Positions 12,686-40,233 of a stretch of 64,000 nt of DNA are shown piece after piece; the first letter of the stretch is position 1; the number at the start of each line of letters is the position of its first letter. The notes under the pieces are model-generated. The model was not told the DNA's origin, did no database searches, and worked only from the letters and a program-made list of their open reading frames with translations. This DNA is from Escherichia virus TH41. The stretch is taken from sequence record MT446412.1, one strand, 5' to 3'. A program made the position numbers and the translations under genes.

Positions 12686-12715
12686 GTTTACAACACCATA
12701 AAAAGGGTGTACTAT
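12686..12715 (+). promoter_or_regulatory. early promoter cassette
   Basis: GTTTACA, spacer hairpin ACACC..GGTGT, TACTAT; leader CATCAACTACTGATGAGG. Confidence 0.5.
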
Positions 12716-12746
12716 TATCCCATCAACTACTGATGAGGATAATAAA

Positions 12747-12995
12747 ATGTTATTAGTTAATGTGCAGTACCAGTTCAAATCTGAAGAAGCTCTCCAAAAG
12801 TATGCTGATATTTGTGAGCATAATAAAAGAACAGCTGCCATTGTTGGTCTGAAGCCTTTTAAAATTTTGGATTGCTCCTTGAACAGAGCAAGACGCTGGT
12901 GTAGTGTTGCCTGTCATGCTTCAGTTGAAGGGAATGATTATTTTTTCATTACTTTCAATGCACAAGATTTTCATTTAATTAATGAATTAAAATAG
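12747..12995 (+). CDS. hypothetical protein (82 aa)
   Basis: ORF with RBS, preceded by cassette promoter and leader. Confidence 0.55.
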   Translation: MLLVNVQYQFKSEEALQKYADICEHNKRTAAIVGLKPFKILDCSLNRARRWCSVACHASVEGNDYFFITFNAQDFHLINELK

Positions 12996-13383: not shown

Positions 13384-13406
13384 AAGGGGCTTACAGCCCC
13401 TTTTTC
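13384..13406 (+). terminator. intrinsic terminator fused to a -10/leader
   Basis: GGGGCT-TAC-AGCCCC followed by TTTTT, then TATAAT and leader CTATCAACTACTGGAG. Confidence 0.65.
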
Positions 13407-13444
13407 TTATGTTATAATGACTCTATCAACTACTGGAGAATAAA

Positions 13445-17523: not shown

Positions 17524-17549
17524 TATGCTTTAAACCAATACGATATAAT
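17524..17549 (+). promoter_or_regulatory. candidate MotA-dependent middle promoter for gene 56
   Basis: taTGCTTtA, 11-nt spacer, TATAAT. Confidence 0.45.
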
Positions 17550-17587
17550 TAACATACAAACAACATGAATTGATAAGGAAAAATATA

Positions 17588-18106
17588 ATGGCACATTTTA
17601 ACGAATGTTCTCAACTGATTGCTGGTGTTGATAAAGCTCAAGGCGCTTATGATAATGCAATTTTTGAAGGCACTGACCCACTGCAAATTATGCTTGATAT
17701 GCAGAAATCGTTGCAGGTTCGTCTGGCTAAAGAAAAACCAGAATATAACGAACATCCTGATAACCTGGCGACTGCTGGTGAAGTTGTTACCTGGCTCCGC
17801 AACCAGAAAGATTATATTGATGATGAATTCCGTGAACTGATTACTGCATTAGGTGGCATGTCCAATGGCGAGAAAGCTGCCTCGGCCGTATGGAAGCCTT
17901 GGAAAGCACAACATGGCGAAATGCAGCAAACCCTAATTAATGATTTATCTCCTGAAGACCAGCTCGAAATTAAATTTGAGATGATTGATATCCTGCACTT
18001 TGTTCTGAATATGTTCCATGGCCTTGGACTGACTGCAGAAGAAATCTTTAAATTGTATTACCTGAAAAATGCTGAGAACTTTGCTCGTCAAGACCGAGGT
18101 TATTAA
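17588..18106 (+). CDS. 56: dCTP pyrophosphatase gp56 (MazG-like)
   Basis: ATG at 17588; MAHFNEC N-terminus and later blocks match T4 gp56. Confidence 0.85.
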   Translation: MAHFNECSQLIAGVDKAQGAYDNAIFEGTDPLQIMLDMQKSLQVRLAKEKPEYNEHPDNLATAGEVVTWLRNQKDYIDDEFRELITALGGMSNGEKAASAVWKPWKAQHGEMQQTLINDLSPEDQLEIKFEMIDILHFVLNMFHGLGLTAEEIFKLYYLKNAENFARQDRGY

Positions 18107-18389: not shown

Positions 18390-18397
18390 TATAAATA
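18390..18397 (+). promoter_or_regulatory. late promoter TATAAATA upstream of soc
   Basis: Exact TATAAATA about 30 nt upstream of the soc ATG. Confidence 0.5.
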
Positions 18398-18428
18398 CAC
18401 CTGTAATTAAACAACAAAGGAGTTAATT

Positions 18429-18662
18429 ATGGGTGGTTTCGTTAATATCAAAACCTTTACGCATCCAGCTGGTGAAGGTAAAGAAGTTAAAGGTGTTGAA
18501 GTATCTGTTCCGTTTGAAATCTATTCAAATGAGCACCGTATTGCCAATGCTCATTATCAGACTTTTCCTTCCGAAAAGGCCGCTTATGTCACCGTAGCGT
18601 CTAGTGCAGCTGATTGGCGAACTAAGAACGCGGCGATGTTTACGCCTACCCCAGTAGTTTAA
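18429..18662 (+). CDS. soc: small outer capsid protein Soc
   Basis: 77 aa; GFVNIKTF...HYQTFPSEKAAY blocks match T4 Soc; late promoter upstream. Confidence 0.7.
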   Translation: MGGFVNIKTFTHPAGEGKEVKGVEVSVPFEIYSNEHRIANAHYQTFPSEKAAYVTVASSAADWRTKNAAMFTPTPVV

Positions 18663-20275: not shown

Positions 20276-20509
20276 ATGAACTGGTTAACAAATATCCCCA
20301 CATCGGCGCTGGATATCGACCGTAAACACGCTCATAAGGAAATTGAGCAACAAAAAATTAATCGCTTACAAAGGATTAAGACTGAATCCAAGACAATTAA
20401 AGCCGAACGCCCGACAGAATCGAAAAGTTCTTACTCATCATATCAATCTCCGATTGGCATGGCCGCAGACATTGCAGTCTTTGGCGTCCCACTTGGAGTA
20501 TTTAAGTAG
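20276..20509 (+). CDS. hypothetical protein (77 aa)
   Basis: ORF 20255..20509 with ATG at 20276. Confidence 0.45.
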   Translation: MNWLTNIPTSALDIDRKHAHKEIEQQKINRLQRIKTESKTIKAERPTESKSSYSSYQSPIGMAADIAVFGVPLGVFK

Positions 20510-20565
20510 TTTACTTACTCCCCTCCTAATGACATAATGGTCTTTCTTACAACAGAGAGGCCATT

Positions 20566-21126
20566 ATGAACATCATCAAATCTGATACCGAACCCAACCA
20601 GTTAAAATTTAATGAAATGGAGATAGCTTCATTATTTGAATGCCGCGCATCAAAGGTTGATAAGACCTTACATTCAAACATCAACTCAATCATCAAGTCA
20701 AGGTTGTCTATACCTGATACAGTCTTGTATCGTGGGGTAACCCAGCAAGAGATTGATTTGTTAGATGAAGCAAAAGAATCAATGCAACCTTTTGAATTTG
20801 GAAGGATAACCTCCTTTACAGAAGACTATGGTATTGCCAGGGATTTTGCTGCAATGGAATATGTGTCAAGGACTATCATCAGATTGAATCATACAAAAGC
20901 TTTTTGTTATCATGATGCGATGCGCAAAATCGCGCTTGACGTTCCACTGGAATTCTTCAATACAGCCTCTGGTTCCGAACAGGCAGCAACGTTAAGGCGT
21001 GAAGAATACATGGACATGATTGATTCTGAGCTTGAATGGTTTGTTCCAGTTGACCAGAAATTCGTGATAGTTGATGCTGGATTTGTTGATGATTATTATG
21101 TTCTTGACTGTGTACAAGAGCAATAA
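20566..21126 (+). CDS. mono-ADP-ribosyltransferase, ModA/ModB family (first copy)
   Basis: R-S-E motif set: LYRG, TSFT, ELEWFVP; 186 aa; T4 modB position. Confidence 0.6.
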   Translation: MNIIKSDTEPNQLKFNEMEIASLFECRASKVDKTLHSNINSIIKSRLSIPDTVLYRGVTQQEIDLLDEAKESMQPFEFGRITSFTEDYGIARDFAAMEYVSRTIIRLNHTKAFCYHDAMRKIALDVPLEFFNTASGSEQAATLRREEYMDMIDSELEWFVPVDQKFVIVDAGFVDDYYVLDCVQEQ

Positions 21127-34244: not shown

Positions 34245-34260
34245 CGGGGCTTCGGCCCCT
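34245..34260 (+). other. TTCG-tetraloop hairpin without U-tract
   Basis: GGGGC-TTCG-GCCCC after rIIB stop. Confidence 0.4.
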
Positions 34261-34797: not shown

Positions 34798-35391
34798 ATG
34801 ATTCAGAAGAGTAAAACATGGGAGCATCTGAAAAAGATGCCCTCCTTTCTTTATACAAAGGAAGACTTAACCCCCGAATCCCTGCAAAAGATTGTAGATA
34901 CAGCCAGGTATTCATTGCGTAAAGACCCGGGTCAGGACCGTGAGCAAGTCATGCAAAGATGTATGGTGGCTACAATGGCTGAACAAGCTATTGCTAAATG
35001 GACTTCAGGTTTTTTATGTGGCGGTGATGAAGATTACGATAATCCTTATTCCTTTGCATTTGATGTAGTTTCGAAGGAAGGGGTAAGAATCGAAGTCAAG
35101 ACTCATCAGTCTGGTTCCAAATGGATATCCGTACATACTGGTCACCAGGGTGATTATCCACATGGTTACGGGGTTAATCTTGGCCCTTTTATGCAGCACA
35201 AGCTTGCTGACCTTATGATTATGTTTAATGTAAAAGAGACTCTCAAAGGTTATAGATTTAAACCAAAATTCCTTGCTGGGCCTGGTGCTTTCGTTCCTGA
35301 GTCTGGTCTTGTGCAGAAATCACAAGGGGATGGCTGGTACCTCCGTTCTTGTTCAGAAGAAAAATTTCCCTATCACCGGTTTACAAGCTGA
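34798..35391 (+). CDS. hypothetical protein with PD-(D/E)xK-like nuclease motif (about 197 aa)
   Basis: ORF 34714..35391 with ATG at 34798; FAFDVV...IEVKT resembles D...E-x-K; in the region where T4 has denB. Confidence 0.5.
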   Translation: MIQKSKTWEHLKKMPSFLYTKEDLTPESLQKIVDTARYSLRKDPGQDREQVMQRCMVATMAEQAIAKWTSGFLCGGDEDYDNPYSFAFDVVSKEGVRIEVKTHQSGSKWISVHTGHQGDYPHGYGVNLGPFMQHKLADLMIMFNVKETLKGYRFKPKFLAGPGAFVPESGLVQKSQGDGWYLRSCSEEKFPYHRFTS

Positions 35392-35403
35392 ACCAACTGT
35401 GTA

Positions 35404-35437
35404 ATAATGTCCTCATACCAACAAATGAGGACATTAT
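35404..35437 (+). promoter_or_regulatory. 13-bp stem-loop sequestering the RBS of the downstream ORF
   Basis: TAATGTCCTCAT-accaacaa-ATGAGGACATTA perfect stem; GAGGA Shine-Dalgarno lies in the 3' arm, ATG at 35439. Confidence 0.6.
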
Positions 35438-35438
35438 C

Positions 35439-35714
35439 ATGGAACACGTTACTACTCACAACATCAAACAAATTCTTATCCAAGCACTCAAAAACAACAA
35501 CATCAATTTTCCAACCCATGAAATTTTTGATGTAGCATTCAACGAAGTCCAGGGTCAAGTTGCATATTATGACGTTATCGTTTATCTTTCAGAATTTGAA
35601 GTCTACCACCTGACTGAAATTGCTTTCTATCTCTATCGTGGGACTGCAGATTTTACTGGGGTCGTGAATGCAGTTGGCGCATATAAAGAAGTTAAAGAAC
35701 AAATGCACAATTAA
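35439..35714 (+). CDS. hypothetical protein (91 aa)
   Basis: ORF 35349..35714 with ATG at 35439. Confidence 0.5.
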   Translation: MEHVTTHNIKQILIQALKNNNINFPTHEIFDVAFNEVQGQVAYYDVIVYLSEFEVYHLTEIAFYLYRGTADFTGVVNAVGAYKEVKEQMHN

Positions 35715-35788: not shown

Positions 35789-35944
35789 ATGAAACCTGCT
35801 CAATATGCAATGACTTTATACCTTGAAGTTAATGGCGATATTACTGAATTTTTTAAATTAATGCAACAGCGCGGAAAAAGTTTTGCAGTTACTGAGCGTC
35901 AATTTTACGCTTGCCGTAAAAATACATACAATCGTTATGCGTGA
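35789..35944 (+). CDS. small hypothetical protein (51 aa)
   Basis: ATG after GGAGAA RBS directly after the cassette leader. Confidence 0.35.
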   Translation: MKPAQYAMTLYLEVNGDITEFFKLMQQRGKSFAVTERQFYACRKNTYNRYA

Positions 35945-36311: not shown

Positions 36312-36340
36312 GTGTACATCTCCGGTGGTTGTAGTATAAT
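36312..36340 (+). promoter_or_regulatory. early promoter cassette
   Basis: GTGTACA, 16 nt, TATAAT; leader CTATCAACTACTGGAG. Confidence 0.55.
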
Positions 36341-36360
36341 GAACCTATCAACTACTGGAG

Positions 36361-36483
36361 ATGATTATGAAAAAGTTACTTAAAGCCATTTGGAACATGT
36401 TTGTACTGTTTGTTGTCCTGAGCATTTTCCCAATTGTTTTTATGATTGACCATGTACGCGTTTACTTTAACTATTTCTTTTGA
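36361..36483 (+). CDS. small membrane peptide (40 aa)
   Basis: ATG after the leader; MIMKKLLKAIWNMFVLFVVLSIFPIVF. Confidence 0.3.
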   Translation: MIMKKLLKAIWNMFVLFVVLSIFPIVFMIDHVRVYFNYFF

Positions 36484-39901: not shown

Positions 39902-39926
39902 TAGGACCCTTCGGGGTCCTTTTTAT
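39902..39926 (+). terminator. intrinsic terminator (TTCG tetraloop)
   Basis: AGGACCC-TTCG-GGGTCCT followed by TTTTT. Confidence 0.7.
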
Positions 39927-39938
39927 TTTAAAAAAGTA

Positions 39939-39968
39939 GTGTACAAGTCCCTTGACCTGATGCATAAT
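39939..39968 (+). promoter_or_regulatory. early promoter cassette
   Basis: GTGTACA, 17 nt, CATAAT; leader CCATACTGAGTT. Confidence 0.6.
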
Positions 39969-40017
39969 GATTCCATACTGAGTTACACAATGAATCACAA
40001 AAACTTTGGAGAATAAA

Positions 40018-40233
40018 ATGTTTACTGCACAACAGAATGAAGGTCAAGAATACATTAACGCTAAATTCAAATCTAATAAAGAAGCTTGCTATTACTACTT
40101 TGACATGTTCAAACTGGCAAACTCTAAAGAAGAACGTAAACAAGCGATTGATGTGATTGTTTCTACTTCCCATATGAAACGTACTGTGGTACAATCATAT
40201 GCATCAAATTATATGAAATCTATTAAGGGATAA
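40018..40233 (+). CDS. hypothetical protein (71 aa)
   Basis: ORF 40006..40233 with ATG at 40018. Confidence 0.5.
   Translation: MFTAQQNEGQEYINAKFKSNKEACYYYFDMFKLANSKEERKQAIDVIVSTSHMKRTVVQSYASNYMKSIKG

What the first reader, a model, noticed from the sequence alone, without database searches (positions are those of the whole stretch)
35404..35441. 13-bp perfect hairpin occluding the ribosome-binding site of ORF 35439..35714
TAATGTCCTCAT-accaacaa-ATGAGGACATTA forms a 13-bp stem whose 3' arm contains the GAGGA Shine-Dalgarno, with the ATG 2 nt after the stem. T-even phages use this architecture to silence translation on read-through transcripts (e, soc, I-TevI). No late promoter is visible inside this hairpin, so the release mechanism is unclear.
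Basis: partly seen in the sequence, partly recalled or inferred. Interest (0 to 1): 0.5.

Follow-up and report, generated by a model that had tools for sequence, protein, structure and literature searches.

The report
Early-promoter cassette that masks its own RBS
The hairpin is real and buries the ribosome-binding site of a small T4-like phage gene, but its left arm also carries the -10 box of an early promoter, so RNA started there lacks that arm and can probably be translated, while read-through RNA from the upstream gene stays silent.

Summary
**Observation:** confirmed. Arms 35404-35416 and 35425-35437 form a perfect 13-bp stem with an 8-nt loop (dG -20 kcal/mol). GAGGA (35427-35431) lies in the 3' arm and the ATG at 35439. 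No other perfect short-loop stem of 10 bp or more occurs in the window, and only 1.5% of whole-window shuffles contain one this long.

**Context:** the window is a T4-like Gaprivervirus. The hairpin lies between denB and a clade-restricted 91-aa ORFan under purifying selection.

**Release mechanism:** A T4 early-type promoter (GTTTAC 35379-35384, TG 35400-35401, AATAAT 35403-35408) overlaps the 5' arm. T4 consensus numbering puts the start at A35415. That RNA lacks the 5' arm, and the predicted cost of opening the RBS falls from 18.7 to 3.4 kcal/mol.

**Supporting evidence:**
- The strict promoter pattern occurs 16 times, all on the early-gene strand (1.4 expected).
- modB has the same layout here and in T4, RB69 and JD18, with covariation.
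- T4 gene 49, a proven masked RBS, scores the same as ORF91.

**Classification:** it is a PeSL-type early cassette combined with the T4 e/soc/49 masking logic, driven by an early promoter instead of a late one. All functional claims are inferred, because no 5'-end or translation data exist.

The parts
35379..35385 (+). -35 element GTTTAC(A) of a T4 early-type promoter. It lies in the last codons of denB.
   Evidence: It matches the T4 early consensus GTTTAC at -36..-31. It is invariant in 14 genomes and homologous to the GTTTACA after denB in T4.
35389..35391 (+). denB stop codon (TGA), 13 nt upstream of the main stem
   Evidence: No terminator-like site lies between denB and the hairpin.
35400..35408 (+). 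Extended -10: TG (35400-35401), one base, then the AATAAT hexamer (35403-35408). The hexamer overlaps the first 5 nt of the 5' arm.
   Evidence: (10 of 12 matches, with TG). TG and the hexamer are kept even where the spacer changed.
35409..35414 (+). Discriminator GTCCTC, which acts as the anti-Shine-Dalgarno segment of the 5' arm
   Evidence: It pairs with GAGGAC at 35427-35432. C-rich -3..-1 is typical of T4-type early promoters.
35415..35415 (+). Predicted transcription start (A), plausible range 35413-35417
   Evidence: It follows from T4 consensus numbering and from the -10 + N6 + A spacing shared with sister cassettes. This is an inference and has not been measured.
35404..35416 (+). 5' arm of the hairpin
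35417..35424 (+). Loop ACCAACAA
35425..35437 (+). 3' arm of the hairpin, containing the Shine-Dalgarno GAGGA (35427-35431)
35397..35442 (+). Whole structure including the lower 5-bp helix (35397-35401 with 35438-35442), which pairs the AUG
   Evidence: In 5 relatives the TG-to-CA change at 35398-35399 turns two G.U pairs into C-G and A-U.
35439..35714 (+). ORF91, a 91-aa ORFan (VR7ORF288c homolog) whose translation is controlled by the hairpin
   Evidence: pN/pS is 0.12-0.21. There is one cluster in 5.8 billion. It has no Pfam or NCBIfam match, and phrog_17571 has no known function.

Best explanation
The hairpin is part of a self-contained early-gene cassette of the PeSL type, in which a promoter and an RBS mask are written into the same bases.

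On the DNA, bases 35379-35408 form a sigma-70 / T4 early-type promoter (GTTTAC, 18 nt, TG-n-AATAAT). On RNA that reads through from denB, the -10 hexamer and the discriminator (35404-35416) are transcribed. They pair with the segment from the SD to the base before the AUG (35425-35437), which shuts the ORF91 ribosome-binding site in a stem of about -20 kcal/mol. A ribosome terminating at the denB stop codon (35389-35391) ends just short of the main stem, so it should not open it.

RNA polymerase that starts at the cassette's own promoter begins at about A35415. That RNA has no 5' arm, its 24-nt leader is unstructured, and ORF91 is translated.

The net effect would be that ORF91 is made only from its own immediate-early transcripts. 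It would stay silent on longer delayed-early or middle transcripts that continue after early promoters shut off at about 3 min.

Shown: the stem, the promoter-like sequence, their overlap, their conservation, and the same layout with covariation at modB. Inferred: promoter activity, the start site, the existence of read-through RNA, and the effect on translation.
For: 1. The stem is real and unlikely by chance.

2. The promoter evidence:
- The site is TTTACA-17-AATAAT, 10 of 12 matches, with TG.
- The strict T4-type pattern (G[TG]T[TG]AC, 16-18 nt, a -10 with at least 5 of 6 matches) occurs 16 times in the window. All 16 are on the early-gene strand and none on the other, against 1.4 expected for both strands.
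- 13 of the 16 lie 20-44 nt before a start codon.
- T4 has a homologous GTTTACA-17-TACTAT at the same place after denB.

3. T4 consensus numbering (GTTTAC at -36..-31, T at -7, A at -11, C-rich -3..-1) puts +1 at A35415.

4. The opening cost of the RBS (35422-35452) is 18.7 kcal/mol on read-through RNA. It is 3.4 kcal/mol for any 5' end between 35412 and 35420.

5. Census of 115 gene starts:
- ORF91 (0.09) and modB (0.12) are the two least accessible RBSs, and both have such a promoter.
- 3 of the top 4 gains on truncation are promoter-proximal (p = 0.012).

6. The modB leader in T4, RB69, JD18 and metagenomic relatives has the -10 paired to the AUG region and the discriminator paired to the SD:
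- 86% of cells are paired, against 38-48% with slid partners.
- 7 of 15 pairs change on both sides.
- Only 1 of 500 shuffles reaches the observed covariation score.

7. Imperfect pairs are G.U on the sense strand, for example in fDHCT2, at modB and at 36367. That points to an RNA-level structure rather than a DNA-level one.

8. Calibration: T4 gene 49, a proven masked RBS, scores 0.09, the lowest of 84 T4 genes. T4 modB, mrh.2 and motB.2 behave like ORF91.

9. ORF91 is under purifying selection (pN/pS 0.12-0.21), so it must be expressed despite the mask.

10. Early initiation fades after about 3 min, and middle RNA arises partly by extension of early transcripts.
Against: - There are no 5'-end, transcript or translation data for this phage.
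- The -10 hexamer lacks the consensus T at its first position, and the region at -40..-44 is not A-rich.
- Promoter-proximal RBSs as a class are not more occluded than others (Mann-Whitney p = 0.44), so this is a subset design and not a rule.
- The hairpin itself shows almost no variation in its narrow clade. There is one wobble-preserving change and one two-base change that strengthens the lower helix, and no compensatory double change. The top pair is broken in 9 of 14 genomes.
- Stem conservation (1-2 variable sites in 26) is not significantly below that of the flanks.
- Some complementarity comes for free, because an A/T-rich -10 matches an A/U-rich SD-AUG spacer and a C-rich discriminator matches an SD.
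- The energy model ignores folding kinetics and ribosome standby binding.
Confidence: 0.62

Rival explanations
1. The stem-loop is a transcription terminator or attenuator for RNA coming from denB, which is how the PeSL authors read such stems. It would stop upstream transcription from adding to that of the cassette's own promoter. This does not exclude the RBS mask.
For: PeSL stems were proposed as attenuators. One G/C-rich stem (PeSL211/210) lowered lacZ in a transcriptional fusion as much as rrnB T1. The hairpin is intergenic and stable.
Against: There is no U tract after the stem, which is followed by CAUGGAACACG. The terminator scan does not flag it. The same genome uses canonical G/C-rich UUCG-type terminators with U runs elsewhere, for example at 39904-39926 and near 13385. 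The stem is A/U-rich. The exact register with the SD and AUG, and the covariation at modB, are not needed for a terminator.
Confidence: 0.15
2. The hairpin is an RNA stability or processing element. It would act as a 3' exonuclease barrier that protects denB mRNA, or as an endonuclease site, and the RBS overlap would be incidental.
For: Stable intergenic hairpins commonly protect 3' ends (established knowledge). The stem sits 13 nt after the denB stop.
Against: It does not explain why the 3' arm coincides exactly with the SD, or why the -10 coincides with the 5' arm, here and at modB across genera. Thirteen base pairs is short for RNase III (my own knowledge). No Rfam family matches.
Confidence: 0.08
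3. The promoter-like sequence is inactive. The hairpin simply keeps ORF91 translation constitutively very low from polycistronic RNA, or ORF91 is released by some unknown trans factor.
For: The -10 is imperfect (AATAAT) and no start-site data exist. At a loose threshold the generic promoter scan has a high background, with 24 found against 15.5 expected.
Against: The strict T4-type pattern is 11-fold enriched and limited to one strand. -35, TG and -10 are invariant in 14 genomes. T4 has a homologous promoter at the same site. An opening cost of about 19 kcal/mol would nearly silence a gene that is nevertheless under purifying selection.
Confidence: 0.08
4. The inverted repeat works on DNA. It would be an operator for a dimeric DNA-binding protein that overlaps the -10, or a cruciform that affects promoter opening or recombination between cassettes.
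For: It is a perfect palindrome centred on the promoter's start region. PeSLs are recombination hot spots, with an indel junction in the neighbouring cassette.
Against: Natural variants and sister cassettes tolerate G.U pairs only on the sense strand, and these would be A.C mismatches in a DNA palindrome. The stem sequence differs in every cassette, so no common protein site exists.
Confidence: 0.04
5. The stem is a chance palindrome with no function.
For: The clade is narrow, so conservation carries little weight.
Against: Only 1.5% of whole-window shuffles contain such a stem anywhere. In addition, it sits exactly on an RBS and a promoter, and the layout recurs at modB with covariation.
Confidence: 0.03

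Closest known systems
PeSL cassettes (promoter-early stem-loops) of T4-type phages (Arbiol et al. 2010, PMC2839356; Comeau et al. 2014, PMC4122927)
   Same: Both consist of a sigma-70-like early promoter, a stem-loop, an SD and an ATG, placed between small ORFans in a hyperplastic region. The promoter consensus TTTACW-N17-TAYWAT of the T4/PST group fits in 5 of 6 positions of each hexamer. The denB-ndd region is one of the published PeSL-rich regions. An indel with its junction in a cassette leader lies next door.
   Different: All five published stem positions lie upstream of the transcription start, whereas this stem spans the start and ends on the SD. The authors read the stems as terminators or attenuators and as recombination sites, not as RBS masks. 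This stem is A/U-rich and has no U tract.
T4 e, soc, 49 and I-TevI: RBS-sequestering hairpins relieved by an internal late promoter (review PMC3014915)
   Same: The SD and/or AUG lies in a helix on long transcripts. A promoter sits in or just before the 5' arm, so its own transcripts lack that arm and are translated. The predicted occlusion equals that of T4 gene 49 and exceeds that of the soc-like gene in this window.
   Different: The promoter here is early-type (sigma-70), not TATAAATA. The predicted timing is therefore reversed: the gene is on from the start and off on later read-through RNA. The case is not tested experimentally.
Leader of T4 modB and its homologs
   Same: The layout is identical: GTTTAC, TG-n, a -10 hexamer that begins the 5' arm, a discriminator paired to the SD, and the AUG in or next to the 3' arm. 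The leader is short, at 20-24 nt.
   Different: The downstream gene is unrelated. At modB the helix is supported by covariation across four or more genera, whereas the ORF91 helix is confined to one genus.
mobE (Aeromonas phage Aeh1) and segB RBS hairpins (cited in PMC3014915)
   Same: Both are local hairpins that sequester the RBS of a small accessory gene in a T4-type phage.
   Different: Those are homing-endonuclease genes. I did not examine their promoters.

Membership tests
PeSL cassette | Sigma-70-like early promoter (-35, about 17 nt, -10) | tested here: met
   TTTACA-17-AATAAT with TG. It is 1 of 16 strand-specific strict matches against 1.4 expected. This is sequence evidence only.
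PeSL cassette | Stable stem-loop within or next to the promoter | tested here: met
   A 13-bp stem overlaps the -10. However, it extends past the start site to the SD, which is not one of the five described positions.
PeSL cassette | AT-rich region upstream of -35 | tested here: inconclusive
   AAAAATTT is at 35360-35367, but -40..-44 is TATCA and the region is denB coding sequence. It is homologous to the A-rich T4 sequence.
PeSL cassette | SD and start codon at the 3' end; intergenic in a hyperplastic region next to ORFans and indels | tested here: met
   GAGGA and the ATG. The denB-ndd region holds a clade-restricted ORFan. A neighbouring module is present or absent among relatives.
PeSL cassette | Stem-loop acts as a terminator or attenuator | not testable with these tools
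   There is no U tract and the scan does not flag it. This argues against the feature but is not a test.
T4 e/soc/49/I-TevI-type masked RBS | SD and/or AUG paired in a stable local helix on long transcripts | tested here: met
   Predicted: unpaired probability 0.09, opening cost 18.7 kcal/mol. The score equals that of T4 gene 49.
T4 e/soc/49/I-TevI-type masked RBS | A promoter placed so that its transcripts lack the 5' arm | tested here: met
   The predicted start A35415 is the second-to-last base of the 5' arm. The start has not been measured.
T4 e/soc/49/I-TevI-type masked RBS | The relieving promoter is a late promoter (TATAAATA) | tested here: not met
   No TATAAATA and no MotA box (TGCTT) lie in 35364-35450 (sequence).
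T4 e/soc/49/I-TevI-type masked RBS | Demonstrated lower translation on long transcripts | not testable with these tools
   This needs reporter fusions, toeprinting or ribosome profiling.
Intrinsic (Rho-independent) terminator | G/C-rich stem followed by a U run | tested here: not met
   The stem has 5 G-C pairs out of 13 and is followed by CAUGGAAC. The scan does not list it.
RegB endoribonuclease site | Single-stranded GGAGRAYARAA (Durand et al. 2006, PMC1702504) | tested here: not met
   The SD region is GAGGACAUUAU. The four consensus sites in the window are elsewhere.
Any Rfam RNA family | Match at the gathering threshold | tested here: not met
   There are 0 matches in the whole window.

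The most novel reading that the evidence does not exclude
A subset of T4-type early promoters are self-insulating. Anti-Shine-Dalgarno bases are built into promoter DNA that is not transcribed from that promoter (the -10, the discriminator, or the spacer just after -35). Each such gene can then be translated only from its own promoter's RNA and is silent on every read-through transcript. This would give immediate-early-only protein synthesis for genes such as modB, T4 mrh.2, T4 motB.2 and ORF91. It would work independently of RegB cleavage, and it would reinterpret part of the PeSL 'terminator' stems as translational insulators.
Probability: 0.35. Interest if true: 0.65.

Novelty: new variant of a known kind. 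Interest (0 to 1): 0.45.

Why it matters
If the explanation is right, there are three consequences.

- **The puzzle is resolved.**
- **The classical T4 device would work in both temporal directions.** The promoter-inside-a-hairpin arrangement known from e, soc, 49 and I-TevI, which makes genes late-only, would also be used in mirror image to make genes immediate-early-only. That would include the toxic ADP-ribosyltransferase ModB in T4 itself.
- **PeSL cassettes gain a function.** Stems so far read as terminators would act on translation. This would explain how tandem arrays of strong early promoters avoid over-expressing downstream genes.

It is also a compact design rule for synthetic operons, in which a gene responds only to its own promoter.

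The element itself is one small accessory gene's leader in a narrow phage clade, so its importance on its own is modest.

Tried and rejected
- **More variants of this hairpin.**
  - An IMG/VR scan with the stem pattern returned only the three known Gapriverviruses plus unrelated AT-rich terminator hairpins.
  - A metagenome scan anchored on the ORF's first codons gave 21 chance matches and no homolog.
  - A protein-based locus search gave 3 loci.
  - The 5.8-billion-cluster protein search gave one cluster.
  - Real covariation for this particular stem therefore cannot be obtained.
- **Function of ORF91.**
  - Pfam and NCBIfam gave nothing, and the PHROG family has no known function.
  - The 'MafI immunity protein' label in one GenBank record is not supported.
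  - The single-sequence AlphaFold model had pLDDT 60, so I did not run a fold search.
- **Late or middle promoter inside the hairpin.** None is present.
- **Terminator reading.** The stem has no U tract.
- **RegB site.** The sequence does not match.
- **Rfam.** No match.
- **General rule.** The idea that all early promoters mask their RBS was rejected by the census (p = 0.44).
- **T4 genome review (PMC150520).** It lists mapped early promoters, but it is not held in the library.
- **Translational coupling to denB.** I consider this unlikely. The stop codon is 47 nt before the ATG, and the terminating ribosome should reach only the weak lower helix. This rests on ribosome footprint geometry from my own knowledge.

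Full report

Yes. Bases 35404-35416 (ATAATGTCCTCAT) and 35425-35437 (ATGAGGACATTAT) are perfectly complementary over 13 bp, with the 8-nt loop ACCAACAA. GAGGA at 35427-35431 is in the 3' arm.

As RNA the region folds at -20.2 kcal/mol, with z = -3.8 in an 86-nt context and -5.4 in a 49-nt context. A weak lower helix (35397-35401 with 35438-35442) also pairs the AUG.

It is the only perfect stem of 10 bp or more with a 3-12 nt loop in the 64-kb window. Only 1.5% of dinucleotide shuffles of the whole window contain a 13-bp stem of that kind anywhere.

**2. Where is it?**

The window is a T4-like coliphage of the genus Gaprivervirus (VR7, VR20 and SP18 type), at 93-98% identity. The hairpin lies in the 47-nt gap between denB (endonuclease IV, stop codon at 35389-35391) and a 91-aa ORF homologous to VR7ORF288c. 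This is the denB-ndd hyperplastic region.

The ORF occurs only in this clade. It is found in 34 phage records, all at 94% identity or more, and in one cluster out of 5.8 billion. It has no Pfam or NCBIfam match, and its PHROG family has no known function. It is under purifying selection (pN/pS 0.12-0.21), so it is a real, expressed gene.

**3.

The promoter scan finds TTTACA, 17 nt, AATAAT. That is 10 of 12 matches, and it is one of only two plus-strand sites in the 5-kb stretch scanned that has an upstream TG. In T4 terms this reads GTTTAC (35379-35384), 18 nt, AATAAT (35403-35408), with TG at 35400-35401.

The loose scan has a high background, so I tested a strict T4-type pattern: G[TG]T[TG]AC, 16-18 nt, and a -10 with at least 5 of 6 matches. 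The results:
- There are 16 matches, all on the early-gene strand and none on the other strand.
- Shuffles give 1.4 matches for both strands together.
- 13 of the 16 lie 20-44 nt upstream of a start codon.

The pattern is therefore specific in this genome, and the ORF91 site is a member.

T4 has GTTTACA-17-TACTAT at the equivalent place after denB. Its sequence upstream of the -35 is homologous to the window, and it diverges just after the -35.

Published T4 consensus numbering is GTTTAC at -36..-31, A at -11, T at -7, and C-rich -3..-1 (Nolan et al. 2006). This places the start at A35415, the second-to-last base of the 5' arm. Sister cassettes share the same spacing of -10, then six bases, then A.

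**4. Consequence for the RNA**

RNA reading through from denB contains both arms. RNA started at the cassette's own promoter contains only the loop and the 3' arm.

| RNA | Cost of opening 35422-35452 |
|---|---|
| Read-through from denB | 18.7 kcal/mol |
| Any 5' end from 35412 to 35420 | 3.4 kcal/mol |

The result therefore does not depend on the exact start site. The soc-like gene in this window (ATG 18429) has a TATAAATA at 18390 just before its hairpin, which is the classical late arrangement. It shifts by only about 7 kcal/mol.

**5. Is this a design or a coincidence?**

I computed the mean unpaired probability of the RBS (-14 to +3) for 115 gene starts in read-through context.
- The two lowest values are ORF91 (0.09) and the modB-like ADP-ribosyltransferase gene at 20566 (0.12).
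- Starts 12747 (0.24) and 36367 (0.28) follow closely.
- Each of the four has an early-type promoter with a predicted start 20-25 nt before the ATG.
- In that shorter RNA the RBS opens to 0.55-0.65.

A control truncated every gene at -24.
- As a class, promoter-proximal starts are not more occluded than others (Mann-Whitney p = 0.44).
- The extremes are enriched: 3 of the top 4 gains are promoter-proximal (hypergeometric p = 0.012).

So this is a subset design and not a property of all early promoters. The three strict-pattern promoters with the shortest leaders (20, 21 and 24 nt) are the masked ones.

**6. Comparative support from modB**

ORF91 has no divergent homologs, but modB does. The same layout appears in the window, T4, RB69 (Mosigvirus), JD18 (Jiaodavirus) and several metagenomic relatives, each with a different stem sequence. 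It consists of GTTTAC, TG-n, a -10 hexamer that pairs with the bases at the start codon, and a discriminator that pairs with the SD.

On an 11-sequence alignment:
- 86% of cells are paired, against 38-48% when partners are slid by 1-3 columns.
- 7 of 15 pairs change on both sides, for example -10 G with C in T4 against A with U in the window.
- Only 1 of 500 shuffles reaches the observed covariation score.

The many U.G pairs lie on the sense strand and would be C.A mismatches on the other strand. This points to an RNA-level structure.

**7. Calibration on T4**

Applied to 84 annotated T4 genes in 1-50 kb, the same measure ranks gene 49 lowest (0.09). Gene 49 is an experimentally established masked RBS (review), and ORF91 scores the same.

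T4 modB (0.21), mrh.2 (0.30) and motB.2 (0.30) each have an early promoter and open to 0.64-0.71 in their own transcripts. In mrh.2 and motB.2 the anti-SD stretch lies just after the -35, as GTTTAC-TTTCC and GTTTAC-TTCCTC.

**8. Variation of this hairpin among 14 relatives**

- The 12-bp core, the -35, the TG and the -10 are invariant.
- The top pair exists in 5 genomes. In the other 9, C35416 gives a 12-bp stem of -17.7 kcal/mol.
- fDHCT2 has C35414T, which keeps a G.U pair.
- Five genomes have TG-to-CA at 35398-35399. This converts two G.U pairs of the lower helix into C-G and A-U (-21.0 kcal/mol) and keeps the TG of the extended -10.
- These changes are consistent with the structure, but there are too few of them to prove it.
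- Stem conservation (1-2 variable sites in 26) is not significantly below that of the flanks.

**9. Most likely mechanism**

The element is an early-gene cassette in which the promoter and the RBS mask share the same bases. ORF91 is translated from its own immediate-early transcripts. It is silent on RNA that extends from denB and the genes upstream of it.

In T4, early initiation fades after about 3 min, and middle RNA arises partly by extension of early transcripts (Hinton 2010). The predicted outcome is therefore a short early pulse of ORF91 synthesis.

The denB stop codon is 13 nt before the main stem. From ribosome footprint geometry (my own knowledge), a terminating ribosome should reach only the weak lower helix and should not melt the mask.

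The SD region (GAGGACAUUAU) does not fit the RegB site GGAGRAYARAA. The neighbouring cassettes at 13435, 35779, 40008 and 58320 carry exactly GGAGAATAAAA, which is 4 sites against 0.4 expected. ORF91 therefore probably cannot be shut off by RegB, and the mask may serve a related purpose. This last point is speculation.

**10. Rivals**

- **Terminator or attenuator, as proposed for PeSL stems.** This is possible in addition to the mask, but the stem has no U tract and the scan does not flag it. The genome uses canonical terminators elsewhere.
- **RNA stability or processing element.** This does not explain the exact register with the SD and the -10.
- **Inactive promoter with a permanent mask.** This is hard to reconcile with purifying selection on ORF91 and with the strand-specific promoter family.
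- **DNA operator or cruciform.** Sense-strand G.U pairs and the lack of a common stem sequence argue against this.
- **Chance.** This is unlikely.

**11. Relation to what is known**

The element meets the sequence definition of a PeSL (Arbiol et al. 2010; Comeau et al. 2014): an early promoter, a stem-loop, an SD and an ATG between ORFans in a hyperplastic region. The next cassette downstream shows a PeSL-type indel. VR7 lacks the 51-aa ORF at 35789-35944, with the junction between the SD and the ATG of the leader.

However, all five published stem positions lie upstream of the start site. This stem crosses the start site and ends on the SD.

It works like the T4 e, soc, 49 and I-TevI hairpins, but with an early promoter in place of a late one. 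No TATAAATA and no MotA box are present.

The accessible literature names no early-promoter case. Older subscription papers and the 2003 T4 genome review could not be searched, so I cannot exclude a prior description.

**12. Verdict**

I rate the element a new variant of a known kind and of moderate interest. The main open item is experimental: 5'-end mapping, plus reporter fusions with 5'-arm mutations.

Noticed in passing
window 20509-20568: The modB-like ADP-ribosyltransferase gene (ATG 20566) has the same promoter-in-hairpin layout. GTTTAC is at 20509, and the -10 CATAAT (20533-20538) is the start of the 5' arm (20533-20547). The 3' arm (20554-20568) holds the SD and the ATG. The layout is conserved with covariation in T4, RB69, JD18 and others.
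   Followed up: yes
window 12690-12750 and 36312-36367: Two more masked early cassettes. One is the goF-like ORF at 12747 (GTTTACA-17-TACTAT, SD GAGGA paired to ATTATCC). The other is the 38-aa ndd.4-like ORF at 36367 (stem 36319-36331 with 36349-36361, -10 in the loop, GGAG in the 3' arm, two sense-strand G.U pairs).
   Followed up: partly
window 12995, 21845, 26326, 35725, 36312, 36942, 37354, 39939, 42639, 56848, 58259 (+ strand): A repeated cassette family: AGTGTACA, a 5' stem arm, GTATAATG or CATAATG, a 3' stem arm, then a leader that often reads TATCAACTACTG. The stem brackets the -10 but mostly does not touch the SD. All 16 strict early-type promoters are on the + strand and none on the - strand (1.4 expected).
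   Followed up: partly
window 18390-18440: A classical late-promoter case. TATAAATA at 18390 lies immediately before a hairpin (CACCTGTAATTAA / TTAATTATGGGTG) that pairs the AUG of the 77-aa soc-like gene at 18429.
   Followed up: partly
window 13435, 35779, 40008, 58320: The exact RegB/S1 consensus GGAGAATAAAA occurs four times (0.4 expected), each time as the SD of an early cassette. ORF91 and modB lack it.
   Followed up: partly
window 35789-35944 versus L001 (VR7) 2805-2905: The 51-aa ORF is absent in VR7. The same promoter/leader cassette is fused directly to the next ORF (MDIK...), with the junction between the SD and the ATG. SP18 has yet another ORF there. This is PeSL-type module shuffling.
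   Followed up: partly
window 39904-40233: A canonical terminator (AGGACCCTTCGGGGTCCTTTTT, 39904-39926) is followed by an early-type promoter (39939) and a small + strand gene (ATG 40019, 71 aa). My crude gene caller had replaced that gene with a spurious minus-strand ORF.
   Followed up: partly
window 35356-35391 versus T4 (L008): denB here runs about 30 nt further than T4 denB, so the -35 of the ORF91 promoter lies in its last codons. In T4 the homologous AAAAATTTC...GTTTACA is intergenic.
   Followed up: no
L063 (T4) modB 13130, mrh.2 15232, motB.2 8161: Three T4 early genes have RBSs predicted to be masked on read-through RNA and open on their own promoter's RNA. In mrh.2 and motB.2 the anti-SD is the CU-rich stretch right after GTTTAC. 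T4 39.1, dexA.1 and dam also have poorly accessible RBSs with no nearby early-type promoter.
   Followed up: partly
window 17524-17588: A MotA-box-like TATGCTTTA lies about 12 nt before GATATAAT, upstream of the gene 56-like ORF. It looks like a typical middle promoter.
   Followed up: no
window 34246-34259: GGGGCTTCGGCCCC (UUCG tetraloop) lies right after rIIB and directly before the denB.1 SD, with no U run. It may be a stabiliser or attenuator.
   Followed up: no
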